Origin: Rhizophagus irregularis
Lineage: Eukaryota
Assembly (NCBI RefSeq): GCF_026210795.1
Contig: NC_089436.1
Location: forward strand, 62,001-126,000
Direction of reading: 5' to 3'
Length of the DNA: 64,000 nucleotides
A program made the position numbers and the translations under genes. A model generated the notes under the pieces. That model worked only from the letters and a program-made list of their open reading frames with translations. It was not told where the DNA came from and did not search any database. Shown piece by piece: positions 323 to 36,827 of this stretch (position 1 is the stretch's first letter; each line of letters opens with the position of its first letter).

Positions 323-385
323 ATATGATTGTTTATATTTGACTAACTTTAATAAAGTAGTATGAAAACCCCAATTCTGGCTCAC

Positions 386-633
386 TCCCACCATATAATC
401 TAAAATACTACCACTTTATATAATCTAATTACCACCATCATATAACCTAATTACCACCACATAATCCACCTACCACTTTTACTATAATTTAACTACCACT
501 TTCATATAATCTAGCTTACCACCATCATATAATATAATTACCACCATATAATCCACCTACCACTTTTCATATAATCTAGTTACCATCATATAGTTTTATT
601 ACCACCATACAACTCTATTACCACCATATAATC
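386..633. repeat. Short degenerate tandem array (ACCACCATATAATCT-like units), probably subterminal repeat of the Polinton-like element
   Basis: More than 10 copies of ACCAC(C/T)...ATAAT. Confidence 0.75.
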
Positions 634-820
634 TGAAAAATATCAACCGAACAAGAAATAGGATTTCAAAGCTAACGGAGCTAAAAAAGGTAAGGAAATA
701 TTAACCCATCCAGGAAACCAGCCATGGAGTCAATAGAGTGGAATAGCAAGGCAAGCAATTACCCTTATACTGAGAAAAAATGTAATTGAATAAAAGATTC
801 ATATATAAAAGGTTTACAAG

Positions 821-2089
821 ATGTCACAATACAGACCATTACTAAGACGTATACTAGGCCAGTTTGAACTCAACATAGAAGAATGGGTAAAGGAAATAAT
901 GTGGTATTTAGATATAGCATATTTAAAAGCTTTAGATTCCGAATTTAGCAAAGAAAGTATGTTAGTATCTGGATTAGAAGAGCTAGTAGAAATATTTGAT
1001 GAGATGTTAGAAGGTGATGATATATGGATACATCCATCACTTTTATCACGAATAAGATATTCTATTCTACCAGATGAGATGGCAATATATGAAAGATTTT
1101 CAGATATCATTAAGAACTTCTCAGAGGATAAAGAATTAGCATATGCATTATTAGACTTAGTAGAAATATTATCAAAAAAGAAACCTACAACATTCAACAT
1201 TATAGATTACAATATACAAAGAATATTCACGAATCCTAATGATGAATATAGAAATGAATTCAGCATCTACCATATTAAAGGAGATGAAGATATGGACGAA
1301 GATACAGATAAAGACACAGATGAAGACATAGATGAAGTAGAGCAGTAGAGGTAGGCTCCGAATCTGGTCAATCCGGTCATCCTAGGATCAATCCGTCTAA
1401 TAGGCGGATTCGGATTGATCAGATGAATCCGTCAAATAGACCGGATGGATGACCGGATATCCGATCTATCCTATACGGGATCGACAAAAAAATTTCCTTT
1501 TTAGGAAATTTTATGTTACACGACCGGAAACTAAATTTAGAAAAACTGGTTTTTTGTGGAACGGGTATCGCCAAAAATGGAAACGATCGACATGCCCGTG
1601 CGTCACGTGACAACAATTAAATACCTAATCATAAATTCCGGCTGAAATTAAAAGATCGGCGAAAAATTTCCTTTTTAGGATTCTTGTGAAACCCAAAATT
1701 TCATTTTTGCTGGGAAACAAAATTGCCTTTTTTGGATTTGTGTAACGTTACTCGTACCCTAAAAAGGATAACTCTATGCCGATTACTTAATTCCGGCCGG
1801 AATTATAATCAATCCGGTCAATCCGCGGATAATCCGATGATCCGATTTTTTTAATCCGGATTGATCCGTCACGTGATCATCCGGATGACGGATTGACCAG
1901 ATTCATCCGGAGCGCACCTCTATAGAGCAGAATGAATTCAATGAATACTATCAGAATCTTGCACCGACCACCGAGAGTCAGCTGGATAGACTAAAAAATG
2001 AGTTGGCTATAACTCTATGTGACGAATGTCTTATGCCAACAAGAAGTCATGAATGCGATTGCTGGATTTTACAAATAGAGGGTTTCTAG
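821..2089 (+). pseudogene. Hypothetical acidic protein with C-terminal Cys/His cluster, interrupted by a hAT MITE
   Basis: The stop of ORF 821-1348 is supplied by the MITE's first TAG; removing the MITE and one TSD restores ...EVEQ-NEFNEYYQ...CDECLMPTRSHECDCWILQIEGF* ending at 2089. Confidence 0.7.
1346..1922. mobile_element. hAT-type MITE (577 bp)
   Basis: 8-bp TSD TAGAGCAG (1338-1345, 1923-1930); TIRs TAGAGGTAGGCTCCG / CGGAGCGCACCTCTA; subterminal ATCCG/CGGAT repeats. Confidence 0.92.
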
Positions 2090-2109
2090 TTTTCAGTGAA
2101 ACCATTTTT

Positions 2110-2904
2110 TTACCTTTCGCAATCTGGAATAGGTGCATCACAAATAAAATCCCCAAAATCATTCGGATTAGAAAACAACTTCTGTAAGAACTTATAAACC
2201 ATATCAGCATCCAATTCAGTCTATCTTAGTGCCAAATATATTAACCTTACCAGATTTAGGCCAGATATGTACCCGAATCTTTGAAGTAAAGATTATAGCA
2301 ATTTTAGAATGAATATCACCCGCATCATTCTTAATATATTTTATCGGAAAGGGAAGAATCTCACGAATACCATCTGTAGATTCTAAAGCATATGCTAAGG
2401 TAGAAAGATTAATAAACTTATCACCCCAATATTAATCACAAATTTATAATTGCGCAGGAGAGCCTTATTTTCACCCACAAGTTCTACAGAAGAAAATTCA
2501 GGTAGGGAACATTCAGAAAGGTAACGTAAGAAGATAGCAACAGGATCAAAAGACCCGAAAACTTGTATACTACCAGATTTAGGAAAATAACGAATAGTAT
2601 GTACAGTATCAGCTAAGATGATAACAAACTCAATGCATGCATTAAAAGTGCTACCATCCCCTGTATGTCGCCGTCTATTTAATGGATTGTCAGGTGTACT
2701 TCGTCTGCATCGCCTCTCACCTTTTGGTTTAGACAAGTACTGTTCATAACCCTCAAAAGCTTTATGAATAAAGTTGCTATTAATGGCAATAACATCCTTA
2801 GTAGGTTCAAGCTTATGACCAAGCACGGTGTAATCAAGCCCTTCAACATTGATCTTAAATTCAGTAACAGTAAGAGATGGAGTAAGTTCACTAAAAGTAA
2901 GCAT
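2110..2904 (-). pseudogene. Divergent TATA-box-binding-protein (TBP)-fold protein, frameshifted
   Basis: Two internal repeats HTIRYFPKSGSIQVFG and, after a frameshift near 2420, IRVHIWPKSGKVNIFG match the TBP repeat pattern (hydrophobic-F-x-SGK-x-x-x-G); intronless. Confidence 0.6.
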
Positions 2905-3008
2905 GTCTGATTTTTTCTATTAATAGAAAAGAAATGTTCAAATTATTTTATCCTAAGAAAAAATCTAATTAAATAAAACTTTTTCATCAATATCTCATAT
3001 GAGATACC

Positions 3009-3540
3009 ATGACAAACAATAGCTTACCTTTCGAACTTTTAGAAAAGATATTCAAAACTTCATATGAAGGTACTTACTCCCGTTGGCATTATCTTTGCAA
3101 TTATGCATTAGTGTGTCGAAAATGGGCTGTAGTAGCAAACTCTCTCCTATGGGGTGAAACAGACCTTTATAACCGCTATAATATTAAGGAGTTCCAAATG
3201 TACAAACATCTTACAAAACCAGGAACAGTATGCGGAAAATATATCAGAAAGCTTAATATGGATGAGGTAAAATTATGGCCCATTTGTATTGTAAAAATGC
3301 TACAAGCTTGTCCCAATATCCAGGAACTTAGCATAAAAGATTATCAATACTATGGTGGAAAAGGTGACGTTAGAGATTTGCTAAGTAAAATCCTGCATAT
3401 ATTACCAAACCTTCAAAAGCTAGATATCAGATGTAGTTAGAGATATTTTAACAAGGGAAATGCCATTGATAAACTTATAGAAACCCGTAAAGACCTAGAA
3501 ATCAGAGTAACACGTAAATGTAATATTTGCAAAGACTAGT
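3009..3540 (+). pseudogene. F-box/LRR-like protein with an internal stop
   Basis: LPFELLEKIF...ALVCRKW F-box motif; LRR-like units CPNIQELSI and LPNLQKLDI; reading continues past TAG at 3438-3440 (RYFNKGNAIDKLIE...). Confidence 0.75.
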
Positions 3541-3692
3541 AACTGCCAAAAATTTGGGCACTGCCCTGTTACTGCCCGTTACTATCAAAAAAATTTGGGC
3601 ACTGCCCTGTTACTACCCGTTACTGCCGAAAAAATTTGGGCACTGCTTGTTACTGCCCATCACTGTTCACCACTGCCGCAGAAGTTTGGGAA
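3537..3692. repeat. ~41-bp tandem repeat, about 4 copies
   Basis: ACTGCC(A/G)AAAAATTTGGGCACTGCCCTGTTACTGCCCGTT units. Confidence 0.8.
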
Positions 3693-3768
3693 ACACATGG
3701 ATTTTTCCTAGCAAGATGATGCTTTAACTTAGAGGGAAAGTCAAAACTTGCTCCACATAGATGACAGG

Positions 3769-6700
3769 TTAATCTTCCTCGAGAGTGTAAATTTTTTTTA
3801 AGTCGATAGTATCCATCTGCAAGGAAGTCACGTTAGTTTTCCGTTTATGTAGAGAAATTGGAATGGTAATTTTTTTACGTGATGATAGAGGGATAGTCAG
3901 TTGCCAATTTTGGAAATCTAGAATGACATTGGCACGATCAATCCAAGGTACACCTAGCAATAAAAAGTCCTTATCACTCTTAACAATCATGAAGTCATCT
4001 TCGATTTTTTTAGAGTTCTCCCCATCATATACAAGGATACCAAGACCATATACTGTTCCAATAGTATCAGATTTTGTCGCAACACCACTAAGGTCAGGAG
4101 CATTACTTCTATCAACATCAAGATTTAGGCGCTTTACAATATTGTTAGATATCAGAGAACTATCAGAACCAGTATCGAAAATTGTCGTAGGAATAACTAA
4201 AGATTTTTCACTCTCAGGTGCGACTACTTTGGTCTTAATAGTGACTACATCACTAGCAGACTTGCGGTTAACAATTCCAATACCTGCTATAGAAGACCAT
4301 AAGTCATTATTACATATAACATCATCATTTTTACAGATTAAATTTGCAGCCATACTATTAGTTACAACCGAAATCATAGGATGAAGGATAGATGTGAAAA
4401 GGTCCTTAACATTATCCCAAACTTTTTCACATGTTTTTATCGAGGGTTCTCCTTTAAGCTGACTGAGTACTGGTTCTTTATAATTAATGAATTCAGCATT
4501 CAGAGCATTGTAAGCAGATATAACAGTCTCTTTTGGTACAGCATTAACGAAGGATTGAACCAGAAGCTTTAAGAGTTGTATAAAAACCTCAAAGATAATA
4601 CGCTGCCTTTCAAGTTGTGATTTTTTCTTATCAGTAGGCTTTTTATCTACACGTTTCCTTTCTGTAGGCTTTTTTTTTAATCCATAGCAGGCATGTCCAG
4701 AGTCTGAATCACTATCAGAGGAGTCAGAGGAGTCATGTGCATAATTTGTTTTCCTCTTTCCCTTCTTAGATTTTGGACAGGAACTCTTAGTATGACCAGA
4801 TTTTCCACAACTTGAGCATTTCTTTGATTTCTTTGGTTTGCGTGTACCTGAACTTATACCAAATACCTGATTACCACGGTAAATATGGTCAGATGGTAAA
4901 TTTTTATTAAGTTCTGTATCAATAAATATTTCAAGATCACTAAGGTTACTTTACTTATATCGATATCTCTTGGAAGACCTAATTTATATGCTAAAGCAAG
5001 TAATCTCTGAAATGATGTATCATTTTGAGGACTTGAAAATGGACTAGAAGATGGTACTGGTACTGCAGATGATTTAGCCGTAGTCATAGGAATTTTAGAA
5101 TTTATAAGATTCTCAATATCCGCTAAAGTTGGACCCTGATATGTAACTATAGGAGTAGGTGGCATATCTGTCCTGTATTTCTCAACTTCTTCCAATTTAT
5201 TCAGAATAGATGCAACTGAATTTTCTAAACCAATACGTCGCGCATCCAACTTATTTTCACTGGAAAGACCATTTAAGAACTGTTGCCGTACTAATTCATT
5301 CTGATTTACCTCTGGAAGAGTTGGATATGCAAGTCTAACCATTCTTTGTAATTTAGAATAGAATCGGCTTACAGTATCACTACCCTGAACAATAGCATTA
5401 AATGCAAGCTTAGACTTTTCAGATGTTATAGTAGGGAAGTAATGCTTAAAACAATATATTAATTGTCCAATACGTATTCCAGGAGCCACAATTGTACCTC
5501 CATTATTAGCATTAGGATTATTAACAGCTATATCAGTAGGATGACCCTCGACTATTGACCAATCTTCATCCCATACAGTATGATCAGGTATAAAATTAGC
5601 ACCAGTAATAGTATTATCTGCAGCTGCTTGTCCATGTAATACACCAGCCCCTCCACGAAATTGATTCGCCGCTACAGCCTGTATAGCGCCATTATTCAAA
5701 GCATTAAAAGCAGCAAGATTGGCCACACCAGTATTATCCAAAAGATTTACACATTCCCAATTTTTTCCTTTCGATATGTGTTTCATACCAATCTCTAGCA
5801 TCATCTTCAAGTAAAGTTTCAAAGATCCCATGAATCCTAACACGAGTCCTAGCATTAGCAGCAGGATCAAGTCCAGCAGACTCACACCATTGCCTGAATT
5901 CTTGAAGCCAAAGTTCTGGATCTTCACCAGATGCTTCTCTAAATTTTTTAGGTGCATATCCTGCCATTATAGGTTGTTGTATTACCAGAGGGTTATTTTG
6001 TAATGCTAGAATCTGTTGATTCAAATTATTGACCTGATTTTGCAAATTTTGACCATGATTGTGATAGTTTAAAAATTGCCCTCTCCATGCTCGAGCTTGC
6101 TGAATGATACCATTAGCCCGCCTTCTACTTCGCTCTGTTTCAGTATTATAGCGCTGTAATAATCTATGAGCATTTATTCTACTCTCATTACGTTCTCTCT
6201 GGACATTAGCTAGTTGGATTTGACTGTTAGCAAATTGAGCCTGGATGTTAGCCAATTGGATCTGAGTATTTTGTGCAAGGCCTTCCCAATGTTGGCGATG
6301 ACGCACTTCATTTGCATATGCATCCTCATAGGTACGTCTTGTTCTTAGTATAGTAGCACGTGTATTATTAAGTTCTTGTCTAAGATATTCTTCACGGTTA
6401 TGTGCATCATCTAACAAACCTTCAAGTCTATCCTCCATATTATCTTGATCTTCTATAATATTTCGCAACTCATTAGCATATCGGATAATGGCATCAAGAC
6501 TATCATTTGCAGTGTTAAATAAATGATTTATATGAGGGTGTGCTGCTATAGTTGTACGATCAAGGTGAATACGAATACCAGCTACACTATTTGCTATAGT
6601 TGTCCGATTATTTAAGATTTCTGTAATAGGGTCAGGAGGAATTGCTGCCATGTTTTTCCGTTGTCTATTAGCAAGTTCTTTTATTCGATCTTTGAGTTGA

Positions 6701-6942
6701 ATATTTAGAGTATCAACTTCAATCAGCTGACGTTCTAATGCTTGAAGCCCTTCCTCCTTTAGTGATGCCGTTTTTAATGCTTTCTTAAGCTTTGCACGCA
6801 ACTCAGCATTTTTTTGCCTAAGTTCTTCTATTTCAGATTCATGACCCTCAATTACACCATACAGGTATTTTATATATTGCTCTTGTGATTGCAATGTATG
6901 TGCAAGCTTTGTAATCTGTGTCTTTAATGATGTATCTTCCAT
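3769..6942 (-). pseudogene. Gag-like polyprotein: coiled coil, retrotransposon Gag/capsid-like domain, CCHC zinc knuckle, retropepsin; broken by frameshifts
   Basis: PKKFREASGEDPELWLQEF...LEDDARDWY; IVQGSDTVSRFYSKL...QFLNGL (Gag major-homology-like); CSSCGKSGHTKSSC near 4780-4820; FDTGSDSSLIS...LLLGVPWI (aspartic protease); ORF pieces 5734-6954, 4854-5957 and 3769-4377 join across frameshifts. Confidence 0.8.
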
Positions 6943-7988
6943 TGCCAGTTCCACAGATTTTTATAGACCCTACATTTAATAAACAAATCGAACAAAATTA
7001 TATCCTTCAACAAATCTATTACCATCCATGTGGATATTATCGTACTCCTGAAAAACTTTGGGCTAAAGTGCAAGCTGAAGGCCATGATTTTAACATATCT
7101 GATATTACAGAGTGGTTGCATAAACAGGCTATATGGCAAATACACTCACCTATACCCAAGTATGTTCCACAGGTTTCTTTTAATAAGATTACTCGACCAA
7201 ATATGTATCATCAAGCAGATATCTTATATATGCCCTATGATACTGTAGATAGAAAGCTGTATAAATACTGTCTGAATATTGTAGATGTTGCTAGCCGATA
7301 TAAAGCTTCAGTACCTCTAGAAGATCGCAGCTCTGCACGTGTTGCTAAGGCATTTAAAAAGATTTATGGTAAAGCAGACTGCCCGCTTATTTGGCCAAGA
7401 GTTTTACAAGTAGATGGGGGATCAGAATTTAAGGATGAAGTTATCCGATTAATGGATGAAAAAGGTGTGCGTATTCGGGTGGGTACTACTCATAAGAGTC
7501 AGGCTATTGTTGAACGGTATAATCGAACTTTAGCAGAGAGGCTATTTAAAATACAGGATGCAAAGGAACTCCTTACAGAAGGTGTGAATACTGCCTGGGT
7601 TAAGAACCTTTCTGATATTGTGAATGAGCTAAATAATTCTAATACTCGTCTGCTAGGTATGTCTCCAGTTGAGGCAATCCAGAAAGATCAAGTGTATGCA
7701 CTACCTTCAAAAATTCGGAAGGATAGACCTGTAGGTGCAGAAGAAATACGTTTACCAGCTGGTTCTCTTGTGAGATACTTACTTGATAATTCAGATTACC
7801 AAGGTAGGAGACGTGCAACTGATCCAATATGGTCTACTAAAGTTTATACAATTGAATCTTCCACAGTTGTTGATGGGCAGCCGGTTATATATAGGTTATC
7901 TGATGGACCTAAAAAAATATTTACTCGGGAAGAATTATTAGTTGTGCCATCTGATACTATGCTGCCTCCTACTCATATATTATATTAA
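6927..7988 (+). CDS. Polinton-type retroviral-like (rve) DDE integrase, ORF intact
   Basis: QADILY (D), VDVASRY, QVDGGSEF (D), IVERYNRTL (E); C-terminal WSTKVYTI...YRL...FTREELL; no chromodomain seen. Confidence 0.92.
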   Translation: MMYLPLPVPQIFIDPTFNKQIEQNYILQQIYYHPCGYYRTPEKLWAKVQAEGHDFNISDITEWLHKQAIWQIHSPIPKYVPQVSFNKITRPNMYHQADILYMPYDTVDRKLYKYCLNIVDVASRYKASVPLEDRSSARVAKAFKKIYGKADCPLIWPRVLQVDGGSEFKDEVIRLMDEKGVRIRVGTTHKSQAIVERYNRTLAERLFKIQDAKELLTEGVNTAWVKNLSDIVNELNNSNTRLLGMSPVEAIQKDQVYALPSKIRKDRPVGAEEIRLPAGSLVRYLLDNSDYQGRRRATDPIWSTKVYTIESSTVVDGQPVIYRLSDGPKKIFTREELLVVPSDTMLPPTHILY

Positions 7989-10900
7989 TTTTCAAGTTGT
8001 GGTATCCTATAATCTCCATGTGCATACATTGTGATATTATCTTGTGCAATCCATTTTTTATCATCCATAGGGGATAACCCCACCTTCGACATTTCTATAA
8101 CATTTATAGCATATCTATCAGATCGGATTGCTCTAAAGGTGACTGTATCATTATGTTTAGGATCAAAGAGTGCGCTTATTATACCGCTCATGGTGGAACT
8201 CTTTTTTAACTACCTTTGAGGGGACACCTTTAGCCTTACGGATACCATGTTTTGGATTGGTGGTCTCATCCCCTACCTTGAGAATGGAGTACATTTTGGG
8301 GCGGAGGCCAATAAATTCTGCTATAACTGCTCCATTACATTCATCCTTAAATTTCCCTGGGATTTTCATATTTATGTCAGTCTTATCACCTAATGCTTTT
8401 CGTACAGGATGATCTTTAGGATAATCACTGAAGTCAAATTGGTCTGCCATATCTATGAGGTCTGCATTAATATCCTCAGTTTGGATTTGTACAAGAAGTG
8501 AGTCTGTGTCTGTATAACATAACTGGATTTTTTCACCATATCGTACTTTAAGAAAGATTATATAGTAGTAATTCCGATACATACAGAGCTTCGAGAGGTC
8601 AAGCACACTCATACCCACATATGTTGGACGGTTAAGCATTACCTCCACTTTTCGTCGGTGGATTGCAACAAGATTTTCTGAGAATATTTTACGACCCTTG
8701 AATGCAAGATCTGAGGTAAGCTTTTTATATTTCTTGGGATGGGTTTGGGGTTGTACTACTGAGACACGTACATGTTTCCTGAGATTTTCCATAGTTTTAC
8801 CAAATACACTATTATTCATGAGTAAAGCTCCGAACGGGTCGGTTCGGTTCGGTTTTTTTGTGGTTCGGGTAGAACCGAAAACCGAAATGGAACCGAACCG
8901 GAACTGTCCGGTTCGGTTCAGTTCTATCCGAAATTAAGAAAAATGCGAAAAAACGAATACACGACCATCCAGTGATCGTACAAGGACGAGCCATAGCTTG
9001 TTGGAATCCTCTCATCGAGACGCGTCGAATGGTGGTAAAATCAAGTCTCTAGCATAGATAGATCACGAGATAGAACATGGTGAGTGTTTCTTAAAAAATT
9101 TGCATTAGAAAACGATCCATTGATGCTAGAGACATGAATTTACCACCATTCGACGCATCTCGACGAGACGAATCTAATGAGCTATAATTCGTCTTTTTAC
9201 AATCATTGGATGGTCGTGTATTCGTTTTTTCGCATTTTTTTTTAAATTTTCGAACGTAAAAATTAAAATTCCGATACAAGCGATTAAACGCCATCTATTG
9301 CTCACACAAAGACGAATTTTAGCTCATTGGATTAGCCTCACTGAGACGAGTCGAATGGTGGTAAAATCAAGTCTCTAGCATCGATAGATCGTGAGATAGC
9401 CCATGGTGAGTGTTTTTTAAACAATTCGCATTAGAAAACGATCTATCGATGCTAGTGACATCATTTTACCACCATTCGACTCGTCTCAGTGAGGCTAATC
9501 CAATGAGCTAAAATTCGTCTTTGTGTGAGCAATAGATGGCGTTTAATCGCTTGTATCGGAATTTTAATTTTTTACGTTCGAAAATTTAAAAAAAAAATGC
9601 GAAAAAACGAATACACGACCATCCAGTGATTGTAAAAAGACGAATTATAGCTCATTAGATTCGTCTCGTCGAGATGCGTCGAATGGTGGTAAATTCATGT
9701 CTCTAGCATCAATGGATCGTTTTCTAATGCAAATTTTTTAAGAAACACTCACCATGTTCTATCTCGTGATCTATCTATGCTAGAGACTTGATTTTACCAC
9801 CATTCGACGCGTCTCGATGAGAGGATTCCAACAAGCTATGGCTCGTCCTTGTACGATCACTGGATGGTCGTGTATTCGTTTTTTCGCATTTTTCTTAATT
9901 TCGGATAGAACCGAACCGAACCGGACGGTTTCAAGTCCAAAACCGAACCGAGAACCGAACCGAATTTTTTGCCGGTTCCGGATCGGTTCCCGGTTCAAAC
10001 CGGAACTGTTCGGAGCTTTATTCATGAGTTTATAGAAGTCCTTCTCAAAATCATTCTTAGCCTTAGCACGTTCGGCGGTGTTAAATTCTATATATGGTTT
10101 CATCTATGGAGCCTGCTCGAATTTTATAGCTTCATAGACCTTCTTGATTACTAAGCCCTGGCTAACATAATACTGGAGATTTCTATAATGAACTACATAT
10201 TCATCCTTATCAAATAGGTTAGGGATGAGCTTATCTGTGGGTGTATATCGTTGTCCTGAGCGTGCTATTATTTCCTGCTGCTTTTTACTAAGCCATTCCT
10301 TCTTAACCTTCATTCGTTCTGGTGCAAGGGGGTAATCTGTGTGTTGTGAATGGAGGGCTTGGGGATATTCCAGTTTAACTTTAAGGATATATCCTTCAGA
10401 AGAATCGTCTGGTATTTCATTACTTTCTATTTGCCTTTGAATGTTAGATAACTCGTTTTCCTCCTTTATCCAGTGGAAGTTACCTGTAGGTAAGTATTGC
10501 AACATGGCCCATCCATATAGGTTATTTGCGTCTAAGTATAGAATAGATGACTTGGGCTTATCTGCGGTCCATTTACCTTCTCCCATACCTGGATTATTTG
10601 CACGAGCATATCGTTTACTTACCATAGAGATTCCACCACGTAATCCTTGTTCTACCATCATGTACATGTCCTGGTCAGTTATAAGATCCAATCTTTGCCC
10701 TGTCATTAAGAATAGTGCATCCCATGCGAAGCCTGGTGTTGAATAGTACCAGAGAGGATCTAACCCATATTTTTTTAAGGCCATTTCTCGGAAATTCTGA
10801 AATATATCGGCTAGTAGGAGGACGTCAGTTTTGAGATAAATGTCATGATAATCTTGCATTGTTTTACATCCTGCTTTTTCCCATACATACTGTGCATATT

Positions 10901-11685
10901 CGTGTTCTTTATCACTAATGTGAGTTTTATTAAGTTTGCTATAAAATGCTCCTTTAGGTGGTAAACTAGTTTTCTCGAACTTTTTCCAGTCATCCATGTA
11001 TTCATACGGGTAGACACCTTTCTTAAGATAAATCTCGAGTAATTCAGGTGGTATTTGACTTCGTGTTATCTTAAAGTTTTTGGGATGTGCAAAGCATCTA
11101 CCTGCATCAATTCGCCATAAGTGTTGTGGATTACTACATTCTTGTGCTTTCTACATTTTTCTGCACCTAGATTGGATGCTAATTTGTCGAAACTTGATTT
11201 CATGAATTGTAAGCTGTCTATAAATCGGAGGGAACCTAACTTGAATGCCATATACTTTTCCATGTTATAAGGGATAGGATCAATATCATCCTCACATTCC
11301 ATTGCACCAATTCCTTGCATAATTATGTGTCCATCATATCCTGATAAATTGTGAAAGATTACTGAGATATGCATTTCACGAGGTTTTATGGATAAGTCAA
11401 GATTACATCCTCTATGTGCTGCACCTCGATACCTTCCTGTAATATGGCAGTGGTCTCTTACTTTATTTCCATCTAAAGGGTTACGACATATCTAGCAGTT
11501 TATTGCATTATCATAACTTGCTTGCTCTTGGGTTGTTAATGGCATCATTTCCATTGGGTTTCTGAATTCATTACGGATTGCTTTAGCCTCATTTAGCATT
11601 TCGATTACAAATTTTTGTGCTGCATTTTCTCCTGTAAATATCTTCTGTGATCACTTACACCATCATATTTTACCTTAATATATAA
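7985..11685 (-). pseudogene. Protein-primed family B DNA polymerase with HNH/endonuclease VII-like insertion; stops, frameshifts, MITE insertion, N-terminus missing
   Basis: FHNLSGYDGH (ExoII), YLKTDVLLL (ExoIII), YLDANNLYGWAM (A), KLMNNSVFGK (B, rejoined across the MITE), YTDTDS (C), KMYS, KAKGV; C*IC...DHCHITGRYRGAAHRGCN at ~11400-11500. Confidence 0.93.
8823..10020. mobile_element. hAT-type fold-back MITE (1198 bp) inserted in polB motif B
   Basis: 8-bp TSD TTCATGAG (8815-8822, 10021-10028); 13-bp TIR TAAAGCTCCGAAC; AACCG/CGGTT subterminal repeats; long internal inverted repeat. Confidence 0.95.
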
Positions 11686-14600
11686 CGGATCAAACTTGAT
11701 AACGGAACATAAGAAAAACATCCTTCAGAGGGACATCGTTTAAGTAAAGTCTTAGAGGTAGAGGATCGCGAGATAGCAGAGGCACAACCTTGGCATGCAG
11801 TAAATTCAGAAAGCATATCATCAACAAATGACGCAATCCAATGTGAAATAAGAGCTTCATTACGTGGAGCAGGATAAGTAGTAATCACACGGCCAACGAG
11901 GAAAGAGTTAGTATTGCGATTAAAAGAAATAGCCCATTGAGGGTTAAACCAATAATTTCGACTAATATCTATAAAAGAAATAGAAGCTACAATATGAGAA
12001 ATAAGAATTCTAAATTGTGGTAAAACAAATAAAGAAAGAGAATTAGGAATAACAATAAGATTAAATAAATAATTAAACCAAGCAGGCACAGATCCTTTGT
12101 TCGATACTCGTTTAAGGAACCGTAAATCTTTCCATGACAAAAGTTGAGAGTCACACGGTGTAATCAGTTGAGCCAGATAATGAGTGCAGAAATTATTCTG
12201 AACATTTTTCATGGAAGTAAATAAATCTTTTGGTAAAATAGACCGAAGTGGAATCGCCGGACATAAATCTTTCCTCGGAAGTCGGAACAATAAAGACCAC
12301 ATGATATTCAATCGAGAAGAGAACAATAAAGAATTGAATAAAGAATGTGTTCGCAAGGAAAAGGTATGGGACCATGGTTCCAGATCAATAATAGAAGGGC
12401 AGGCATCACAATCCAAAAAACCTTGAAGATAAGTAATTATATAATTGGCAAAGAGCTTATATAAAGGGTGAGAAAAAATTTTCTGCCATGAAGCCACATG
12501 GGACGAAAAAAATCGACCAAATGCTTGTTGGATTGAGAATGGTAACAGTGTGAAAAGCGTAGAAAGAGAAGTGACTGAGGCAAAACCAGCCTTCTGTCGA
12601 ATAAGGGAAAGTATTGGAGAAACTATGCGATTAATGGTAGATTTAGCAAATAATGTAATTTGTAGGCGAAATTCTAGCCTCAGAAGTAAAACAATATTAT
12701 AAAGATAAGCCACATGTTGTACCAAAAGTTTTTAGAACTAAGCAAAGCAGCCATATCTTTGACCATGGAAACAGTTTGGTTGTGAACAAAACGAGAAGAA
12801 GCTAAAAGATTAAACCAAACACCTAAAAAACGAAAGGATGTAGATAAGGCTAACGCCTTTAAAGTAAGGGTATGAGATGTAATTAAAGGAGAAGGAGAAA
12901 GATCAAACACAATAGTTTGAGAAAATTGATCAGAAGAAAGAAGGATATATTTTGCTGAGTTTGCTTGAGTATTATTTAAAGTATAGAATTCAGCAGTGAT
13001 GGAAAGGCGATCTTCAATTCCTCGTTTAGATGAAGCAATCAAAGTAGAATCATCCATAAATGTAATATGTGAAACAGGTAAATTATGTTGTTCATATTCA
13101 ATCGGAGAATAATTCATTAATGCAGAAGATTTCAAAATAAAAGGATCACAAGCTTCTCGATTAAGTGTGGTAAGTAAAGGATCCAAATAAATAACCCATA
13201 ATAGCGGAGAAATGATTTCACCCTGGTCAATACCAATTCTAACTCTATATCCAGAAGTATCACCATGATGGGTAATAATTTTATTATTACGTCGCGTAAA
13301 AAGATTAATGATAAATTTAATCAATAAAGACGGTATATGCAGACGAATTAGAACTAGTCTAAGCATATTCAAATCAATTGAGTCAAAAGCTTTAGAAATG
13401 TCTTGAGAAACAATCCATAACTCTTAGTCATCACTTTTGTCAAAGCGTCGTTGATGAATAATAGCATCAAGCATCTTAATAGGAATGTCAGTAGAACCGC
13501 CTGGTAATCCAGCAAAATTACCACCTTGAAGCACTTGATTGTCAGCTAAAATTTTTGAAAGTTGAGTTATAATGACCTTAACTACACATTTCCGTACAGT
13601 TTCCAGCAAAGTGATAGGCCGCGTATTTTTTAATTGGGCATCAAATTCATGAGGCTTTGGAATGGGATAAACGAGTGCTTCACGCCAATCAGCAGGAATA
13701 TCACCTTGGTTAAGATAGGCATTAGCTAAAATAAGAGACAAATTAAAAGCTTCGCCAGTTAAATGTTTGAGCATCTCATAAGAGATTTTGGAAGGACCAG
13801 AGGCTTTATTACTAGGCATAGAATTGAGAGTGCTCTTCCATTCATCTTCCAAAATAGGAGACATGACCGAGTTATATAAAGACGAATCAATATCAGAAAG
13901 AGGAGTATATGCTCTTTGCCAACGTGGAGGAAATGAATTGGTAGAAGAATACTGGACCAAAGGAGGAGTAACAACCGATTGGAAGTGTTTAATAGCAGCT
14001 TGTTTGATATTTGAAGGATCAGTAAGAAGAGTGGGTTTGGAATCAATTACAACCAAAACTCTGTCTAGAACGATAGAACGATGTTCCACTGACAGGGCTG
14101 AAGAAATAAAAGATCCCGGTGTCGTAGAAAATGTTCATCTTTAAGAGCAGTATAATATTCAATGGAGTCTGTACGATGTTAATGGAATTGTGTGGATAGA
14201 TATGCAGAGACCAAAGCTTTTTGCGAACGCAAAAATTTGATAAAAGCAGGAAGTGATGTCGTACTATAAATAGGTATAGTATAATTTTTTAAAAGAGATT
14301 TGAGAAGAGTTAATTGCGTAGGCAAAGAATTAATCATCTGTGAAATTTGAGCTAGACAACTAAGTCGAGACGTGGTCAATTTGAACAATAATCTATCCAA
14401 GAATTTGTTGATAGCAATAAGCATCGTAAGCTCAGGAGGATACTTATGGTGATGGGTATTAAATACATGTTGAAATGGTAGAGAGTCAATGGCACCACCA
14501 AGAATAGAGCGTTTAAGAGCGTGCCAAAGTTTATCCAAAGAAAGAGCTGAAAATGAAGATATGAAGAGATAATGCGTGGCCAGATACAACTCAAGACGTG

Positions 14601-16262
14601 AGTTTACTTCATTGGAAAATGTCTCCCAAGAATCCTCTTTGATATTTTTATAGAGAAAAATTGTGCGTTGTTCACTTTTTTGTTTTAATCTAGCTTTAGC
14701 AAGAGTAGCGAAACAAGAGCTGAAATTAAAGGCCGTTATAAGTATACGGTGATCAGTAAATTGATTATCATTTAACTTAGGACAAGATTCAACATAAGAG
14801 AAAAGACTGGGAGCAGGAAATCCAGGGGATGACCAAATATAATCAAGTATTGAAGAACCATTCTGATAATAAAAGGTAGGACTAGGACCTGAAATTGAAG
14901 AAATATGGGATTGATGATCCGTAAAATATCGAGAAGAAAGTGATCGTAAAATTTTCAAATGATGTTGAGGAAAATGCGAATGTGAAATTTCATCTGCATT
15001 AAAATCACCAAGGATTACTACATGGTAGTTATTAGAACGGACTTTATCAAGCCATAAATTAAGTTGGGCAAAAATAGCATCACGTTCTTTGTAATGAATA
15101 GAATGATAAGGAGGAATATAAACAGAAATAATAGAAATTTTTGTTTGATGAAAAAAAAGATCTAATTTTAAAAGACGACCTTTCCAAAGATCAATCTTCT
15201 GAACATGTTTATGTAAAGGATGACGAAGTAAAAGACCAACACCATCATGAGGTCGTGAATTAGAAGGGGAAGGGGCCCAATACAGTGTGGTACCTCTATA
15301 ATAGGTACCCCTTATATCTTGTGATCTAATGGTCAGAATTTCATAAAATTTTAAAATTAGATAGCTTTTAAAAAGATAAATACATTAAGCAAATAAAAAA
15401 ATTTTCTCAATTTTTTTTTGCTGACATAATACAAAATCACATGACTTAAAATAAATTTGATTGGCTGATGCAATACCTAATGTTAATTAGAATTATGCAT
15501 AATTTTTTATATATAATTTATTATTCATTATAATTATTTAAAGTAATTTGATTAAGTATATTATCAGGAACTTTTCTATGGGATTTATATTTTTTTTAGC
15601 AAGTTCTCCCATGATTCCTTTTTGAGAAATAGATATAATATAATTTGTAATAAATAAAAACTACCAAAATTTTTTTTGAATTTTTTTTCAAAATTTTTTT
15701 AACAAAGTATGGGTAAGTTTATAAGCTAAAATAATTTATTTGAATAAGCACTATCAAATGATTATTTTTTTTATGTTACACAAAAATCACTTATTCTCAA
15801 ATTTTTCCCATCATAATAAATTACCCGAACTTCAAACTTATGTAGCACTAGCAAAATTTATTATTTTTTAATCTAACCCGATAAGTTTAAAAGCTCTTGA
15901 TATGCTTTATTAAAATTATTGGTTAGAATTTTAAAATATTATTTTTTGCTAATGTGACATCTTTTTGAAAATGTCACATTATGACTATAAAATTGGGTTG
16001 GTTATAGAGGTACCGCACTGTAAGACTTAAAATTATGTTGGGAATGTTCATTTTGGTAAATAAATTTAGCACCAGAAGAAGTAAGACGAGTATCATTTAA
16101 AGATAAAACGCCGAAAGAAGAATGAAGGAAATAATTTAACAAATGTAATTGTCGAACAGAAGAACACAAACCATTAACATTGATTTGTCCAAAGTTAATA
16201 AGAGGGGAAGAAAAAGAGGGAGAGGAAGAATTATTAAGACTATTATTATCAGGTTTTGCACT
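11686..16262 (-). pseudogene. LINE ORF2: APE endonuclease plus reverse transcriptase
   Basis: QINVNGL, GDFN, LDYIW, FTDH (APE); KASGPS, RPITLLE, QDISKAFD, GIDQGEIISPLLW, FMDD, FRFLGVWF (RT). Confidence 0.92.
15283..16020 (-). mobile_element. Tc1/mariner(pogo)-type MITE, copy 1 (738 bp), inserted in the APE domain
   Basis: TA TSD; TIR CAGTG(C/T)GGTACCTCTATAA; removal restores FKSY-WAPSPSNSRPHDGVG. Confidence 0.93.
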
Positions 16263-16308
16263 ATTAGGGGGGTGAAATCCCTGTAAATCACCCAAATTAA
16301 GTTGGTGT

Positions 16309-18433
16309 TCAATCATTAGAAGGGGAGGGTTTTGAGGGGGAGAAGGAGTCCAATTTTTCCATAATCGAACCAAGTTGGGCAGAAAGATTTTTTTGTGTAT
16401 TAGTAACACTAAAAATTTCTGATTGTAGACAGGAAGCGTTAGCATTGGGGGTAATATTAATAGGTCGGGAGACAGGTAAGGGGACATGTCTTCTTGATAG
16501 GACGGAGTTAGGATCCAGAGCTGAGAAGGAAGCATCAGGAGAAGTATCCATAAGAGAAGAGGAAGTATGGGGAGGAAGATTGAATCCAGAATTTGTGTCT
16601 TGGGTTGGAGCATCATCCCATCCATTATCATAAGAATGAGTATAATTTTCATGATCATCCTGAGGCGAATACAATTCAGAGTCGCCAGAGGCATCATAAT
16701 TCCTCATTGATTCCAGCTTAGATAGCCTATACTCATGAGTCGTGATAGTATCATTCATCCAAGAGACAGTTTCCTCTAAAGTACGGAGAGTGTTAGCGAT
16801 CTCTTTGATCTGCGCCTTTAATTCATTAATAACATGTTGAGGACGGAAGTGTAGGGGCAGGATTATCAGATGAAGAAGTAGGTGGTGTAGAAATGATAGG
16901 ATGAGGTCTGTGCGGAGGTTGAGTAGGTCCGGAAGAATTTTCATTGTTCCTGGAATTACTATTATTATTGTTGGTCCGGTTGCTACTTCGAGAAGTATTG
17001 GGACGAGAAGTGTTAGAATTATTATTGCTGTTGTTAGAGCGGGATGAAGAGGAATTATTATTGCGAGATCGAGAATTGGAACGCAATATTGAATGGGAAT
17101 TGGAATTGTCACGTGATTGTCGTGAATCCTAACGGCCACGTCTAGGGCCAGCATTGAAGTGAGAGTAAAGTTTGTTAAGATGATCGTCTACTTTTCGTGT
17201 GGTACGGGGATTGCATACAGAGGGAGAACAACCAGGATGCCCACAAATGTGATATAAAGTTTGTGCTTCATTGGGAGGGTGCCATGTTAATCCTTTGCCG
17301 TAGAAAGCCACAGTCATTTCTTTGGCAGCTTCAAGAGATTCAAATGAGGAGAAATTCAAATATACATAGGGTTTAGGCTTGTAGGAGCTGATAGATAAAG
17401 GAACGTTAAGGGCCTTAGCGTTGACTTGAGTAGCAATTTCTAATAGATCAGCTTCTTTAATATTCTTAGGAATGCTGGCAAGGATAGCGACATGTTCTCT
17501 GCGGCTATCACGTTAGGATTTCGAAAAAGATGCCGGGCAGACACGTAAAGAATTACCAAGGCAAATGATCGCCCAAATATCATTAAATTGGGTAACTGCA
17601 TCCGCAGAGGAAAACTGGATATGCCTATTATAATAATGTTTCCTAGGAGTAAGTTTGCACTTGATTACAGTGCCATATCGGGAAAATGCCTGACGGACTT
17701 GAGTCTCAGTTAGGAAAAGAGGGATGTCGGTAACAAACAAAGATTTTGCTTCATCATTGAGTTTGGTATCTGCAGGGGAATAATGAAGGAAGACTAAATT
17801 GAGAAGATCTGCACGTGGGGAGCTGACATAATCGGTAAAATCATGCTGATCATTGAAGAAGACAAGGATTTTCTTGTTATCGCCTGATCTATCGCAGCGT
17901 GCGCGGGCACTATAGGAGGAATATCGGGAGAGTGAGCAATCCACTTCGTCACACATAGAGCGATTGGTGGTGAATGCAGTTTTGAATGCGTCAGGCACGT
18001 CGCGTAAATATGCCGCAGCATAATAATGAGATGGAGCAGATTTTATAGCGGCAGCATTACCATCGGAGGATGGTCATCGTTCAGGGACATCGAAGGCAAT
18101 AGCTTTGCCTTTACCATTGGTGTTAGTGAGAGCATGGATAGAAGCGTCGACAGTTTCAACAGGAGTAGTAGTATTATGAGGAGAGGTAATCACTTGGACT
18201 TTGTTGACAGGAAGACCAGAAGGAACGGTAGAAATAAGAGTGGGAGCAGGAGCAGAGGGCGAAGTTATATCAACATTCATAGCGTCATCAGAGACAATAC
18301 GTGTACGTTTATTAGGTGTGCCAGCGGTACTAGTGGGAGATAAAGGTCAGTCTCCAGAGGGAGTAGAAACAACAGGACGTGGTGACGGTGGAATATCTGG
18401 GTTAATAACAGAAGGAGCTGGAGATGTAGTCAT
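16309..18433 (-). pseudogene. LINE ORF1 (Pro/Ser-rich N-terminus, RRM-like domains, knuckle, coiled coil)
   Basis: LFVTDIPLFLTETQVRQAFSRYGTV (RRM-like), YHICGHPGC, Ser/Arg/Asn-rich linker, coiled coil; several stops and frameshifts. Confidence 0.8.
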
Positions 18434-18605
18434 GGTTTAGAGCTCAGTAAAGAGGAAAGCAACTGGGAAATTATTAGTATTTTGAACGAGCACTTAGAAA
18501 TTTTCTAACGAAAATTTCAAAAATAAATTTTATTAGTATTTTCAAAAATTCAGGAAAGAGTTGCAATGATCCTCCATATTTGGTGATTATAAAGAGATGT
18601 GACTA

Positions 18606-19346
18606 CAGTGCGGTACCTCTATAACCAACCCAATTTTATAGTCATAATGTGATATTTTCAAAAAGATGTCACATTAGCAAAAAATAATATTTTAAAATTC
18701 TAACCAATAATTTTAATAAAGCATATCAAGAGCTTTTAAACTTATCGAGTTAGATTAAAAAATAATAAATTATGCTAGTACTACATAAGTTTGAAGTTCA
18801 GATAATTTATTATGATGGGAAAAATTTGAGAATAAGTAATTTTTGTGTAACATAAAAAAAAAATAATCATTTGATAGTGCTTATTCAAATAAATTATTTT
18901 AGCTTATAAACTTACCTATGCTTTATTAAAAAAATTTTGAAAAAAAAATTTAAAAAAATTTTTAGTAGTTTTTATTTATTACAAATTATATTATATCTAT
19001 TTCTCAAAAAGGAATCACAGGAAAACTTGTTAAAAAAAATATAAATCCCACAGAAAAGTTTCTGATAATATACTTAATCAAATTACTTTAAATAATTATA
19101 ATAAATAATAAATTATATATAAAAAATTATGCATAATTCTAATTAACATTAGGTATTGCATTAGCCAATCAAATTTATTTTAAGTCATGTGATTTTGTAT
19201 TATGTCAGCAAAAAAAAATTGAGAAAATTTTTTTATTTGCTTAATGTATTTATCTTTTTAAAAGCTATATAATTTTAAAATTTTATAAAATTCTGACCAT
19301 TAGATCACAAGATATAAGGGGTATCTATTATAGAGGTACTGCATTG
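18606..19346 (+). mobile_element. Tc1/mariner(pogo)-type MITE, copy 2, inverted relative to copy 1
   Basis: TA TSD (18604-05, 19347-48); same TIR and body as 15283-16020. Confidence 0.93.
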
Positions 19347-19351
19347 TAATA

Positions 19352-35666: not shown

Positions 35667-36827
35667 GATGTCGGTATATCTGCAAACGCGAAAATCGAGA
35701 GTTAGAAACAAAGTTCAAAAAAGTAATAATACAAATAAAACATTTTGGATAAAACGTTAAACCTAGCGGGTGGGGTTTTTTCCTCATTTAGTTTGTACCT
35801 GGAATGGCAAAAGTACTCGAGATAGCGAAGAATAGCTTGACATTTTGATTATATGTCATATATATATATATTTTCATAAATGGTTGTTGACTAATTACTA
35901 CGAACTGTGAGTCAGTAATATTACGAACAGAGTCAGCAATGTGTCAAGGACCAAATACAAAATCGAAAAAAATTAAAAAATTTATCAATCAAAAATCAGC
36001 CACATGTCATGATGTCACATGAGAGTACCAATCAAAATAATTCCCAGTTGGGAAGACATTACGCAAACAAAGATACTGTATGTTATGACTGTACATTTAC
36101 AAGGAAGCGACTCAGAGCTTACAAAGCTAATATCTATTTTTTTTGTTAGGGGAATATAAACTTTTGGTGAGTTCTACTAAGGTCAATACTGTTAATTTAT
36201 TTCTGGCTCTGCATAACTGATGACCATTTTTGTTCTATCTAGAATATCGATGTTAAGGACAAATGAAATCGGATTAATGTTGAGATATTATATTAGTATA
36301 GATAGTTCGGATGATGGTGTGGGTCTGTAGGCATTAGTATAGAAATGCCCACCATTTCACATTGTAAAACAAGTCTATGTATTATCAAATCATGTAATTT
36401 ATTTACTGCATCAATAAAGAATTCAAGCTGAAAATGTTATACATTATATTAAGTATATTTTTTATGGAATATAGAGATGTATTAGTAAATAAAAAAAGGT
36501 GAGACCTAAAGTCCCACTTAGGTAAAAATGCATTTTAAATAATCGTGTTCTATATAAAAGTTATTATTGAACATGCAATTTGAACTTGATTTATTAAAAC
36601 AACGCGTATCAAGCTTCTAGTTGAGAATGCTGAGATTAAGGCTGAAAATGCCAAGGTTAAAGTTAAAAATGCTAAACTAAAGCAGGCTATAGAGGAGAAT
36701 GAGGCCAGACTTGCAAAATTAGAGCAGAGTGATAAAGAAAAAGCTAAACTCATTGCAGAACTCAATTGTAATGTCAGAAAAATCAAGCAGGAGCAAATTA
36801 TTGTTGACGTTACAACACAGCCTAGTA

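What the first reader, a model, noticed from the sequence alone, without database searches (positions are those of the whole stretch)
356..11685. Polinton-like element pairing pPolB and integrase with a retrotransposon Gag-zinc knuckle-aspartic protease and no reverse transcriptase
Seen: six intronless genes on strictly alternating strands with almost no spacers (hypothetical +, TBP-like -, F-box +, Gag-CCHC-retropepsin -, DDE integrase +, pPolB -). The protease stops at 3769 with no RT/RNase H behind it, and I see no LTR, PBS or TSD around the gag-pro unit. Known: Polintons pair pPolB and rve integrase with double jelly-roll capsid, A32-like ATPase and adenain-like cysteine protease, while Gag plus retropepsin belongs to LTR retroelements. 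Inference: this may be a chimeric self-synthesising element whose particle/maturation module is retro-type, in effect a retrotransposon gene set with RT swapped for a protein-primed DNA polymerase. Caveat: everything beyond the polB 5' region is lost, so a canonical capsid module could have been there.
Basis: partly seen in the sequence, partly recalled or inferred. Interest (0 to 1): 0.92.

Follow-up and report, generated by a model that had tools for sequence, protein, structure and literature searches.

The report
Polinton with a retrotransposon-type capsid
A self-copying DNA transposon of mycorrhizal fungi carries a retrotransposon Gag capsid and protease in place of the usual DNA-virus capsid genes, so it likely packs its DNA in a retrovirus-like shell, and it probably borrows the transcription machinery of a giant virus.

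Summary
Confirmed and extended. The window holds a decayed copy of a multi-copy, about 11.3 kb Polinton-type family of Rhizophagus irregularis. The order TIR, pPolB, integrase, Gag-protease, F-box, TBP, unknown gene, TIR is conserved in soil-metagenome relatives with saturated silent sites. Both ends are closed by inverted repeats, and in R. irregularis the second repeat runs straight into the pPolB start (4 of 4 runs). Gag folds as a retroviral-type capsid; the protease is under purifying selection and is followed by the F-box gene, never by reverse transcriptase (17 of 17 informative loci). New here: the TBP's best structural match is an asfarvirus protein. Asfarvirus-like early promoter motifs precede pol, F-box and TBP but not gag or integrase, and T-runs follow the stops. 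This points to dependence on a giant-virus helper, and such a virus is known in this host. Particles and helper dependence are inferred, not shown. The gene set was probably drawn once before (Starrett 2021, Fig. 5 legend) but is not discussed in that text.

The parts
356..826 (.). Left terminal inverted repeat (471 bp, begins AGTAGT, internal ~20-bp tandem repeats); includes the promoter and start codon shared by the unknown gene and, at the other end, pPolB
   Evidence: Contigs break at 355/356; in 4 of 4 runs contigs leave the window at 826 into sequence matching the pPolB N-terminus of L002
821..2089 (+). Unknown gene (about 220 aa when whole; acidic linker, C-terminal four-Cys motif), split by MITE1
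   Evidence: Both halves match one 218-aa ORF in L005 and one in L014; no Pfam, PHROG or Atlas assignment
1346..1922 (.). MITE1, later insertion with 8-bp target duplication (hAT-like by TSD length and termini; label recalled)
   Evidence: TSD at 1338-1345 and 1923-1930; joints that skip it in 4 of 4 runs
2113..2904 (-). TBP-like gene of asfarvirus B263R type (263 aa when intact; one frameshift here)
   Evidence: Model pLDDT 85.9; best viral match B263R homologue of abalone asfa-like virus, E 1e-16, TM 0.70; cellular TBPs E 8e-8 or weaker
2905..3008 (.). Divergent promoter region of TBP and F-box; shares a 31-bp motif with the TIR promoter
   Evidence: 87% match of 765-795 to 2948-2978; TTGAA-core motif conserved across lineages
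3009..3540 (+). F-box gene (premature stop at 3438 in this copy)
   Evidence: Pfam F-box-like 6.6e-7; 207-aa intact orthologue in L005
5968..6942 (-). Gag-protease, N-terminal ~325-aa region, coiled-coil-like; function unknown
   Evidence: Conserved start across lineages; only weak coiled-coil Pfam hits; not folded
5140..5967 (-). Gag capsid (CA) domain, N- and C-terminal lobes with a ~100-aa insertion; lower boundary approximate; frameshift near 5760
   Evidence: Model of the L002 orthologue pLDDT 87.8; top 34 VIA rows are all retroelement capsid proteins, best Z 10.5, rmsd 2.4 over 85 residues to PEG10 CA-CTD
4777..4818 (-). CCHC zinc knuckle
   Evidence: C-x2-C-x4-H-x4-C in sequence, conserved in alignment A1
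4670..4678 (-). Poly-A tract at the Gag/protease junction; candidate slippage site (in frame in this copy)
   Evidence: Length 7-11 across 18 loci: 3 in frame, 8 at -1, 7 at +1
3769..4669 (-). Helical spacer plus retropepsin (DTG at 4176), ending at stop 3769; no RT follows
   Evidence: Pfam Asp_protease_2 below cut-off; profile hits to Ty3-G Gag-Pol 2.4e-4 and Ddi1; dN/dS 0.06-0.26
6930..7988 (+). Stand-alone rve integrase, intact, D-D-E at 7218/7413/7512; head to head with gag, overlapping by 13 nt
   Evidence: Pfam rve 8.2e-9; motifs; 99% to intact P0273
7985..11682 (-). [quoted passage not shown]
   Evidence: Pfam DNA_pol_B_2; intact 1317-aa orthologue in L002
8823..10020 (.). MITE2, later palindromic insertion in polB with 8-bp target duplication
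   Evidence: 349-nt arms 99% complementary; joint 8811-10018 in 3 of 4 runs
11683..18450 (-). Unrelated LINE that abuts the truncated polB (not part of the element; far end approximate)
   Evidence: RVT_1 1.8e-13 and endonuclease 2e-11; no further polB or TIR match in the window

Best explanation
This is a decayed copy of a multi-copy, TIR-bounded Polinton-type element whose jelly-roll capsid module is replaced by a Ty3/gypsy-type Gag-protease gene, which likely builds a retrovirus-like shell around the element's DNA, and whose genes are probably transcribed by the RNA polymerase of a co-resident asfarvirus-like giant virus. Shown: gene content and order, TIRs at both ends, CA fold, zinc knuckle, protease under purifying selection, absence of RT and of room for MCP or ATPase, TBP fold closest to an asfarvirus protein, promoter-motif enrichment. 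Inferred cycle: (1) helper infection or reactivation supplies RNA polymerase and early factors; (2) early genes (pPolB, F-box, TBP, unknown gene) fire from AAAATTGAAT-like promoters and end at T-runs; (3) pPolB copies the excised linear DNA by protein priming from the TIRs; (4) the element's own TBP turns on gag-pro and integrase late; (5) Gag co-assembles around DNA and integrase without a packaging motor, and the protease matures the shell, with slippage at the poly-A junction possibly setting the Gag to Gag-protease ratio; (6) the integrase inserts the DNA into a host nucleus. My odds by step: architecture 0.93; Gag particle carrying the element 0.65; helper-type transcription 0.65.
For: Synteny: F-box follows the protease in 17 of 17 loci with an intact protease end and at least 260 nt downstream, in five lineages; integrase precedes gag in 4 of 4 loci reaching the gag start, all one lineage. 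L002 and L005 overlap 99.9% over 6013 bp, span 11,249 bp and end in inverted repeats; genes fill 10,459 of 10,883 bp. In R. irregularis the TIR joins the pPolB start in 4 of 4 runs, and single contigs bridge gag-INT-pol. Neighbouring accession numbers pair Gag with INT four times and TBP with INT seven times in R. irregularis assemblies, and once in a family only 30-34% identical in Gag. CA fold. dN/dS: protease 0.06-0.26, gag 0.25-0.41. Protease and F-box distances correlate, Mantel rho 0.72. TBP closest to B263R-like. Motif in 7 of 17 upstream regions against 0.8 in shuffles and 4-6% of host windows; 0 of 4 gag/INT regions. The ASFV core early motif is AAAATTGAAT (PMC8906413); ASFV ends at about 7 U and its TBP is an early gene proposed to serve late promoters (PMC7163114). 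T5+ runs are depleted 2- to 3-fold in coding strands of three lineages, T6+ 0 observed against 3.8 expected, and T6+ lies within 75 nt of 10 of 17 stops. R. irregularis strain 4401 carries a 1.5-Mb asfarvirus-related region with RNA polymerase genes (PMC10640383).
Against: No particle, transcript or free linear DNA was observed. Five scans of viral contigs found no relative. Foldseek gave no PDB match at E <= 0.001 for Gag (best 0.037), and VIA Z of about 10 is below the tool's caution level for helical bundles, though the ranking is uniform. No retro-type capsid is known to me to package pre-made dsDNA (recalled). The promoter motif was first noticed in these same regions, the 17 regions are not independent, and they are 78% A+T. 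The window's own F-box and TBP promoters and two of three unknown-gene promoters miss the strict test. T6 depletion is not significant in any single lineage (P 0.10-0.50), the LINE control also shows T5 depletion (P 0.033), and one host control ORF was read on the wrong strand. The giant-virus region was found in 1 of 5 strains, whereas the element is widespread. One gag pair gave dN/dS 0.63-0.73 at very low divergence. Two truncated loci (L016, L031) lack the F-box neighbour. The 218-aa and 81-aa ORFs are unassigned. Target duplications were not seen.
Confidence: 0.55

Rival explanations
1. Gag-protease is an integral, selected gene but does not package the element's DNA. It acts as a scaffold, RNA binder, nuclear shuttle for the integration complex, or inhibitor of a rival element, and the element moves as a capsid-less transposon.
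For: No packaging motor; no hit in viral contigs; unusual 325-aa N-terminal region and 100-aa insertion in CA; capsid-less Polintons are described (PMC4028283 passages).
Against: Both CA lobes, the zinc knuckle and the catalytic protease are all retained under selection across lineages with near-saturated silent sites; gag and integrase share the same promoter class.
Confidence: 0.2
2. Gag forms the particle, but the element is helper-independent: host nuclear polymerase transcribes it, aided by its captured TBP, and the viral-looking signals are relics or AT-rich coincidence.
For: Recent Maverick expansion is reported in strain DAOM197198 (PMC8647823 passages), while the giant-virus region was found only in strain 4401; weak T6 statistics.
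Against: gag and INT start 10 nt apart or overlap, leaving no room for ordinary promoters; the motif is kept at -35 to -49 in diverged lineages; the TBP is closer to asfarvirus than to cellular TBPs.
Confidence: 0.15
3. The element is packaged in trans by a canonical jelly-roll Polinton or by the giant virus itself, as transpovirons are, and Gag is accessory.
For: A32-like ATPases related to Polintons are reported from fragmented Glomus and Rhizophagus assemblies (10.64898/2026.06.19.733378 passages).
Against: It does not explain why a complete Gag-protease is kept in every lineage seen.
Confidence: 0.07
4. gag-pro is a nested fragment of an LTR retrotransposon or passive cargo.
For: The protein is of Ty3/gypsy type.
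Against: Fixed position and orientation in five lineages, purifying selection, co-divergence with F-box, equal contig depth over gag, INT and pol, no RT or LTR.
Confidence: 0.03

Closest known systems
Polintons/Mavericks, including the capsid-less Polinton reported from Glomus intraradices (= R. irregularis)
   Same: pPolB, stand-alone rve integrase, long TIRs, AG terminus, multi-copy. PMC7805220 (passages) states that no MCP had been found in the G. intraradices Polinton; PMC8647823 (passages) lists Mavericks among recent expansions in this fungus.
   Different: No room for MCP or ATPase; Gag-protease, asfarvirus-type TBP and F-box instead; about 11.3 kb. Whether this is the same family as the 2006 element could not be checked (paper not held).
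Element implied by Fig. 5 of Starrett et al. 2021 (PMC8502044; preprint 10.1101/697771)
   Same: [quoted passage not shown] A member of this TBP cluster carries accession DAC81703.1, a third-party-annotation prefix by my recall. Probably this very family.
   Different: I saw the legend and section 3.4 in full, not the figure or Table S1. 'gag' occurs once in the main text, in that legend. No conservation, selection, structure, capsid-replacement or helper argument is made there.
Ty3/gypsy LTR retrotransposons (Metaviridae) and derived capsid genes (PEG10, Arc)
   Same: CA fold, CCHC knuckle and retropepsin in gag-pro order; possible slippage between gag and pro.
   Different: No RT, RNase H or LTR found; integrase is a separate opposite-strand gene; replication is by pPolB.
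Giant-virus-dependent satellites (virophages, Polinton-like viruses, transpovirons)
   Same: Small TIR-bounded linear DNA, no own RNA polymerase, helper-like promoter motifs (that virophages share helper promoters is recalled).
   Different: Those use jelly-roll capsids or the helper's virion; none known to me has Gag; helper dependence here is untested.
Cytoplasmic linear plasmids of yeasts (pGKL type)
   Same: pPolB, TIRs, dense intronless genes, no jelly-roll capsid (PMC11161782 passages); their promoters are related to the ASFV early motif.
   Different: They encode their own RNA polymerase (recalled) and do not integrate; this element has an integrase and Gag but no RNA polymerase.

Membership tests
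Polinton/Maverick (transposon definition) | [quoted passage not shown] | tested here: met
   Pfam DNA_pol_B_2 in window and L002 pieces; intact 1317-aa ORF with exonuclease and palm motifs (motif labels recalled)
Polinton/Maverick (transposon definition) | Stand-alone retrovirus-like (rve) integrase with DDE triad | tested here: met
   Pfam rve above cut-off; triad present
Polinton/Maverick (transposon definition) | Long terminal inverted repeats, terminus beginning AG | tested here: met
   L002/L005 inverted ends; window TIR 356-826 starting AGTAGT; AG rule recalled; outer tips of L002/L005 not assembled
Polinton/Maverick (transposon definition) | 6-bp target site duplication | not testable with these tools
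   Right end lost in the window; no genome held; contigs end inside the TIR
Polintoviricetes / adintoviruses (virus definition) | [quoted passage not shown] | tested here: not met
   Genes fill 96% of the span between TIRs, largest gap 200 nt; unassigned ORFs are only 218 and 81 aa; TIR abuts the pPolB start
Polintoviricetes / adintoviruses (virus definition) | A32/FtsK packaging ATPase | tested here: not met
   No Walker A pattern in any of six frames of L002 or L005; no Pfam hit
Polintoviricetes / adintoviruses (virus definition) | Adenain-like cysteine protease and penton | tested here: inconclusive
   No Pfam, PHROG or Atlas hit for the 218-aa ORF, but it was not folded
Ty3/gypsy LTR retrotransposons (Metaviridae) | Gag with CA fold and CCHC knuckle | tested here: met
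   Pfam alone is below cut-off
Ty3/gypsy LTR retrotransposons (Metaviridae) | Retropepsin after Gag | tested here: met
   DTG motif; profile hits to Ty3-G and Ddi1
Ty3/gypsy LTR retrotransposons (Metaviridae) | RT and RNase H in a pol gene | tested here: not met
   F-box follows the protease in 17 of 17 informative loci; no long fusion among 21 hits; no RT in 43 scanned
Ty3/gypsy LTR retrotransposons (Metaviridae) | LTRs and primer-binding site | tested here: not met
   No flanking direct repeat; gag starts 10 nt from the INT start in L002; the primer-binding site was not searched separately
Giant-virus-dependent satellites | Promoter and terminator signals of the helper type | tested here: inconclusive
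   Enriched motif and T-runs, but noticed post hoc and in AT-rich DNA
Giant-virus-dependent satellites | Expression or replication only with helper infection | not testable with these tools
   Needs transcript data from strains with and without giant-virus activity
Cytoplasmic linear plasmids (pGKL type) | Own RNA polymerase and capping enzyme | tested here: not met
   No ORF of suitable size or Pfam match between the TIRs

The most novel reading that the evidence does not exclude
A new kind of virus: a linear, protein-primed dsDNA genome of Polinton descent carried in a retrovirus-type Gag capsid and matured by a retropepsin, living as an integrating satellite of asfarvirus-like giant viruses in arbuscular mycorrhizal fungi, with several diverged families across Glomeromycota.
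Probability: 0.4. Interest if true: 0.95.

Novelty: new variant of a known kind. Interest (0 to 1): 0.8.

Why it matters
It offers an answer to a stated puzzle, the missing capsid gene of the Glomus/Rhizophagus Polinton (PMC7805220): the jelly-roll module appears to have been replaced by a retroelement capsid. If particles form, this is a capsid swap between a DNA-virus lineage and a reverse-transcribing lineage, and a Gag shell that packages pre-made dsDNA. It is directly testable, because intact natural 1069-aa Gag-protease copies exist in the reference strain. The asfarvirus-type TBP and promoters would make this abundant repeat a record of giant-virus infection across mycorrhizal fungi and a candidate route for DNA movement between nuclei of these symbionts.

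Tried and rejected
No genome of the window was available, so copies, target duplications and copy number could not be counted directly. Five scans of viral contigs and one of prokaryote genomes found no relative; this says little about virions. Five look-ups of earlier findings gave nothing relevant. Sequence searches of PDB found nothing for TBP or pPolB and only noise for the full Gag profile. PHROG and Atlas gave nothing for the unknown ORF. Complex prediction of CA self-assembly was not available. No strong RNA structure was predicted behind the poly-A junction (about -7 kcal/mol over 70 nt), and the stable control run is shorter (A8), so programmed slippage stays open. The integrase tree (34 rows, 33 chosen from the best 120 of 2881 hits) has no named Polinton or retrotransposon reference, so it does not place the integrase's origin. 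No donor LTR element for the Gag was found; only 150 of 710 hits were listed. RNA status of run X16 is a guess, so expression is not shown. In one search two queries were out of frame and were replaced. Rejected: a nested LTR fragment, and a capsid module beyond polB. Literature: ten searches found no text describing a Gag-bearing Polinton beyond the Starrett legend. Kapitonov and Jurka 2006 and the 2024 MMBR review were not held, Repbase was not available, and the Starrett supplement was cut in storage, so a fuller prior description may exist.

Full report
1. Observation. The six genes are present as described. The copy is decayed: gag-pro has two frameshifts, TBP one, F-box a premature stop, polB several breaks; two MITEs with 8-bp target duplications sit in the first gene and in polB; a LINE abuts polB at 11683. 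Contigs from public runs skip MITE1 in 4 of 4 runs and MITE2 in 3 of 4, show indels at several of the frameshift sites, and continue polB beyond 11682. The element is 36-37% G+C against 28% for the rest of the window.

2. Host and copy status. The protease region is up to 95% identical to a Rhizophagus irregularis protein family of 66 members that includes intact 1069-aa copies. None of the 21 hits of 689-2000 aa is longer than 1096 aa. In the partial member lists (15 shown of 66, 56 and 29), Gag and INT accessions lie within three numbers of each other four times, and TBP and INT within four numbers seven times, on different scaffolds or positions. This is indirect evidence of synteny. A second family (Gag 30-34%, INT 47-50% identical to the first) shows the same pairing once (GET52948, GET52951). 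Related Gag-protease proteins occur in R. clarus.

3. Gag-protease belongs to the element. One metagenome scan returned 31 loci. In 17 of them the protease end is intact with at least 260 nt behind it, and all 17 have the F-box gene there; 12 end too soon to tell; 2 are truncated inside the protease and lack it. The 17 fall into five lineages. All 4 loci that reach the gag start have the integrase head to head, but they are one lineage (at least 99% identical). That lineage is 67% (INT), 76% (pol) and 44% (best Gag segment) identical to the window, with silent sites saturated. Proteins on two further contigs, matched only by equal contig length (7818 and 6578 bp), again pair Gag with INT. dN/dS is 0.06-0.26 for the protease region and 0.25-0.41 for gag, with one near-identical pair at 0.63-0.73. 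Protease and F-box distances correlate across 14 loci (rho 0.72, P 0.0002); clade structure drives much of that.

4. No canonical capsid module. L002 and L005 overlap at 99.9% over 6013 bp and together span 11,249 bp. Their outer ends are inverted copies (about 99 nt identical, 87% over 153 nt). Seven genes fill 10,459 of 10,883 bp; the largest gap is 200 nt. No Walker A pattern occurs in any frame. The two contigs come from different samples and end inside the repeats, so the tips are unseen. Independently, in 4 of 4 runs holding the window's own family, contigs leave the window at 826 into sequence that, read in frame with the ATG at 821, matches 8 of the first 12 residues of the L002 polymerase (read by eye). 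So the TIR is 356-826 and its second copy leads directly into polB. Contigs also break at 355/356, and one run shows the flank continuing without the element.

5. What the proteins are. The Gag core of L002 folds at pLDDT 87.8. Against 48,161 solved chains the first 34 rows are all retroelement capsid proteins: PEG10 CA-CTD Z 10.5, rmsd 2.4 over 85 residues; HERV-K Gag Z 10.2, rmsd 6.4 over 185, covering both lobes. Foldseek ranks the same proteins first but at E 0.037 or weaker. A profile finds Ty3-G Gag-Pol at 2.4e-4. The TBP-like protein folds at pLDDT 85.9; its best viral match is the B263R homologue of abalone asfa-like virus (E 1e-16, TM 0.70), ahead of all cellular TBPs (E 8e-8; the two E-values come from different libraries). 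The 218-aa and 81-aa ORFs are unassigned.

6. Transcription signals. A motif with core TTGAA lies 35-49 nt upstream of several starts. Scored against AAAATTGAAT, the ASFV core early promoter motif (PMC8906413, passages), it occurs in 7 of 17 upstream regions against 0.8 in shuffles (0 of 5000 reached 7) and in 4-6% of host windows. It precedes pol, F-box and TBP and none of the four gag or INT regions. Sense strands hold no T6+ run in 20.9 kb of coding sequence (3.8 expected) and 2- to 3-fold fewer T5+ runs (P 0.012-0.020 in each of three lineages); host ORFs show no depletion, though one was read on the wrong strand, and the LINE shows some (P 0.033). A T6+ run follows 16 of 17 stops within 252 nt and 10 within 75 nt. 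ASFV terminates at about seven U, and its TBP is an early gene proposed to act on late promoters (PMC7163114, passages). R. irregularis strain 4401 has a 1.5-Mb asfarvirus-related region with RNA polymerase and capping genes, absent from four other strains (PMC10640383, passages; also PMC12455990, passages). These signals were noticed post hoc in AT-rich, non-independent regions; they are suggestive, not proof.

7. Gag/protease junction. A poly-A tract after the zinc-knuckle linker varies from 7 to 11 nt among the 18 loci that cover it: 3 in frame, 8 at -1, 7 at +1; an A8 run further on is constant in 15 of 16. In L002/L005 it is the only break in 10.4 kb of coding sequence. Among 50%-cluster representatives, about 14 Gag proteins end in a lysine run at or near this point, 13 protease proteins start just after it, and 19 span it. 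Programmed slippage and homopolymer decay both fit.

8. Mechanism. Best reading: a Polinton-type self-synthesising element that replaced its jelly-roll module with a Ty3/gypsy Gag-protease, likely packaging its linear DNA and integrase by co-assembly, and probably transcribed by a giant-virus helper in an early (pol, F-box, TBP) and late (gag, INT) programme. The architecture is shown; particle formation, packaging, timing and helper dependence are inferred. Rivals: Gag as a non-packaging accessory (0.2), host-transcribed particle (0.15), packaging in trans (0.07), nested cargo (0.03).

9. Prior knowledge. A Polinton without detectable MCP is known from this fungus (PMC7805220, passages), and Mavericks are among its recent expansions (PMC8647823, passages). 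Starrett et al. (PMC8502044: passages and section 3.4 whole; preprint: passages; figure unseen; supplement cut) define TBP and Gag/retropepsin labels in the Fig. 5 legend, so this gene set was probably drawn there; the text does not discuss it. A 2026 preprint reports Polinton-type ATPases in fragmented Rhizophagus assemblies (passages), so canonical Polintons may coexist. Passages of PMC4028283, PMC11161782, PMC11296320, PMC13533422 and PMC5751038 hold no account of a Gag-bearing Polinton.

10. Verdict. Real, conserved and selected; meets the transposon definition of a Polinton (target duplication untested), fails the virus definition of that class and fails membership of the LTR retrotransposons. 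New variant of a known kind, interest 0.8; categorically new if Gag particles carry the DNA.

Noticed in passing
protein P0317 (564 aa, contig 1934 bp): A retropepsin fused in frame to an integrase of this same family, suggesting a related element with gag-pro-INT in one direction and no RT between them. One sequence only.
   Followed up: partly
L002:6148-7269 model residues ~70-170; window ~5460-5760: The CA N-terminal lobe carries a confidently predicted ~100-aa insertion with short strands and helices; it may form a surface domain. Not searched alone.
   Followed up: no
proteins P0234, P0241, P0245, P0247: TBP homologues on metagenome contigs of 11.3-12.5 kb, about the length of a whole element; could be complete or free copies. 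DNA not obtained.
   Followed up: no
protein P0266: A distant TBP homologue (30% identity) on an 8-kb contig that may bridge to asfarvirus TBPs.
   Followed up: no
proteins P0076, P0087, P0090, P0094, P0109, P0110: A diverged Gag group that starts at the CA domain, with no long N-terminal region, and mostly ends in a lysine run; context unknown. Candidate donor retrotransposons or further families.
   Followed up: partly
L005:6255-6500: An extra 81-aa ORF between F-box and TBP in one lineage only.
   Followed up: partly
window 8823-10020: MITE2 is built from three ~327-bp palindromic units and forms a near-perfect 1.2-kb foldback.
   Followed up: partly
window 15281-16022, 18604-19348, 40728-41426: Three copies (89-96% identical) of a ~745-bp non-coding repeat; one interrupts the LINE.
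   Followed up: no
window 11683-18450 (-): Degraded LINE with an RRM-like ORF1, endonuclease and RT; it abuts the truncated polB.
   Followed up: partly
window 22098-24496: Tandem array of 119-140-bp units, about 2.4 kb.
   Followed up: no
window 32889-35714 (-): Host gene whose N-terminus looks like a Crinkler-type domain (recalled, not tested).
   Followed up: no
window 52988-58209: Inverted pair of cytochrome P450-like genes (label from sequence appearance, not tested).
   Followed up: no
L016:4235-8678: A copy cut inside the protease and joined to unrelated repeats and a transposase-like ORF, showing that this lineage is also chromosomal.
   Followed up: partly
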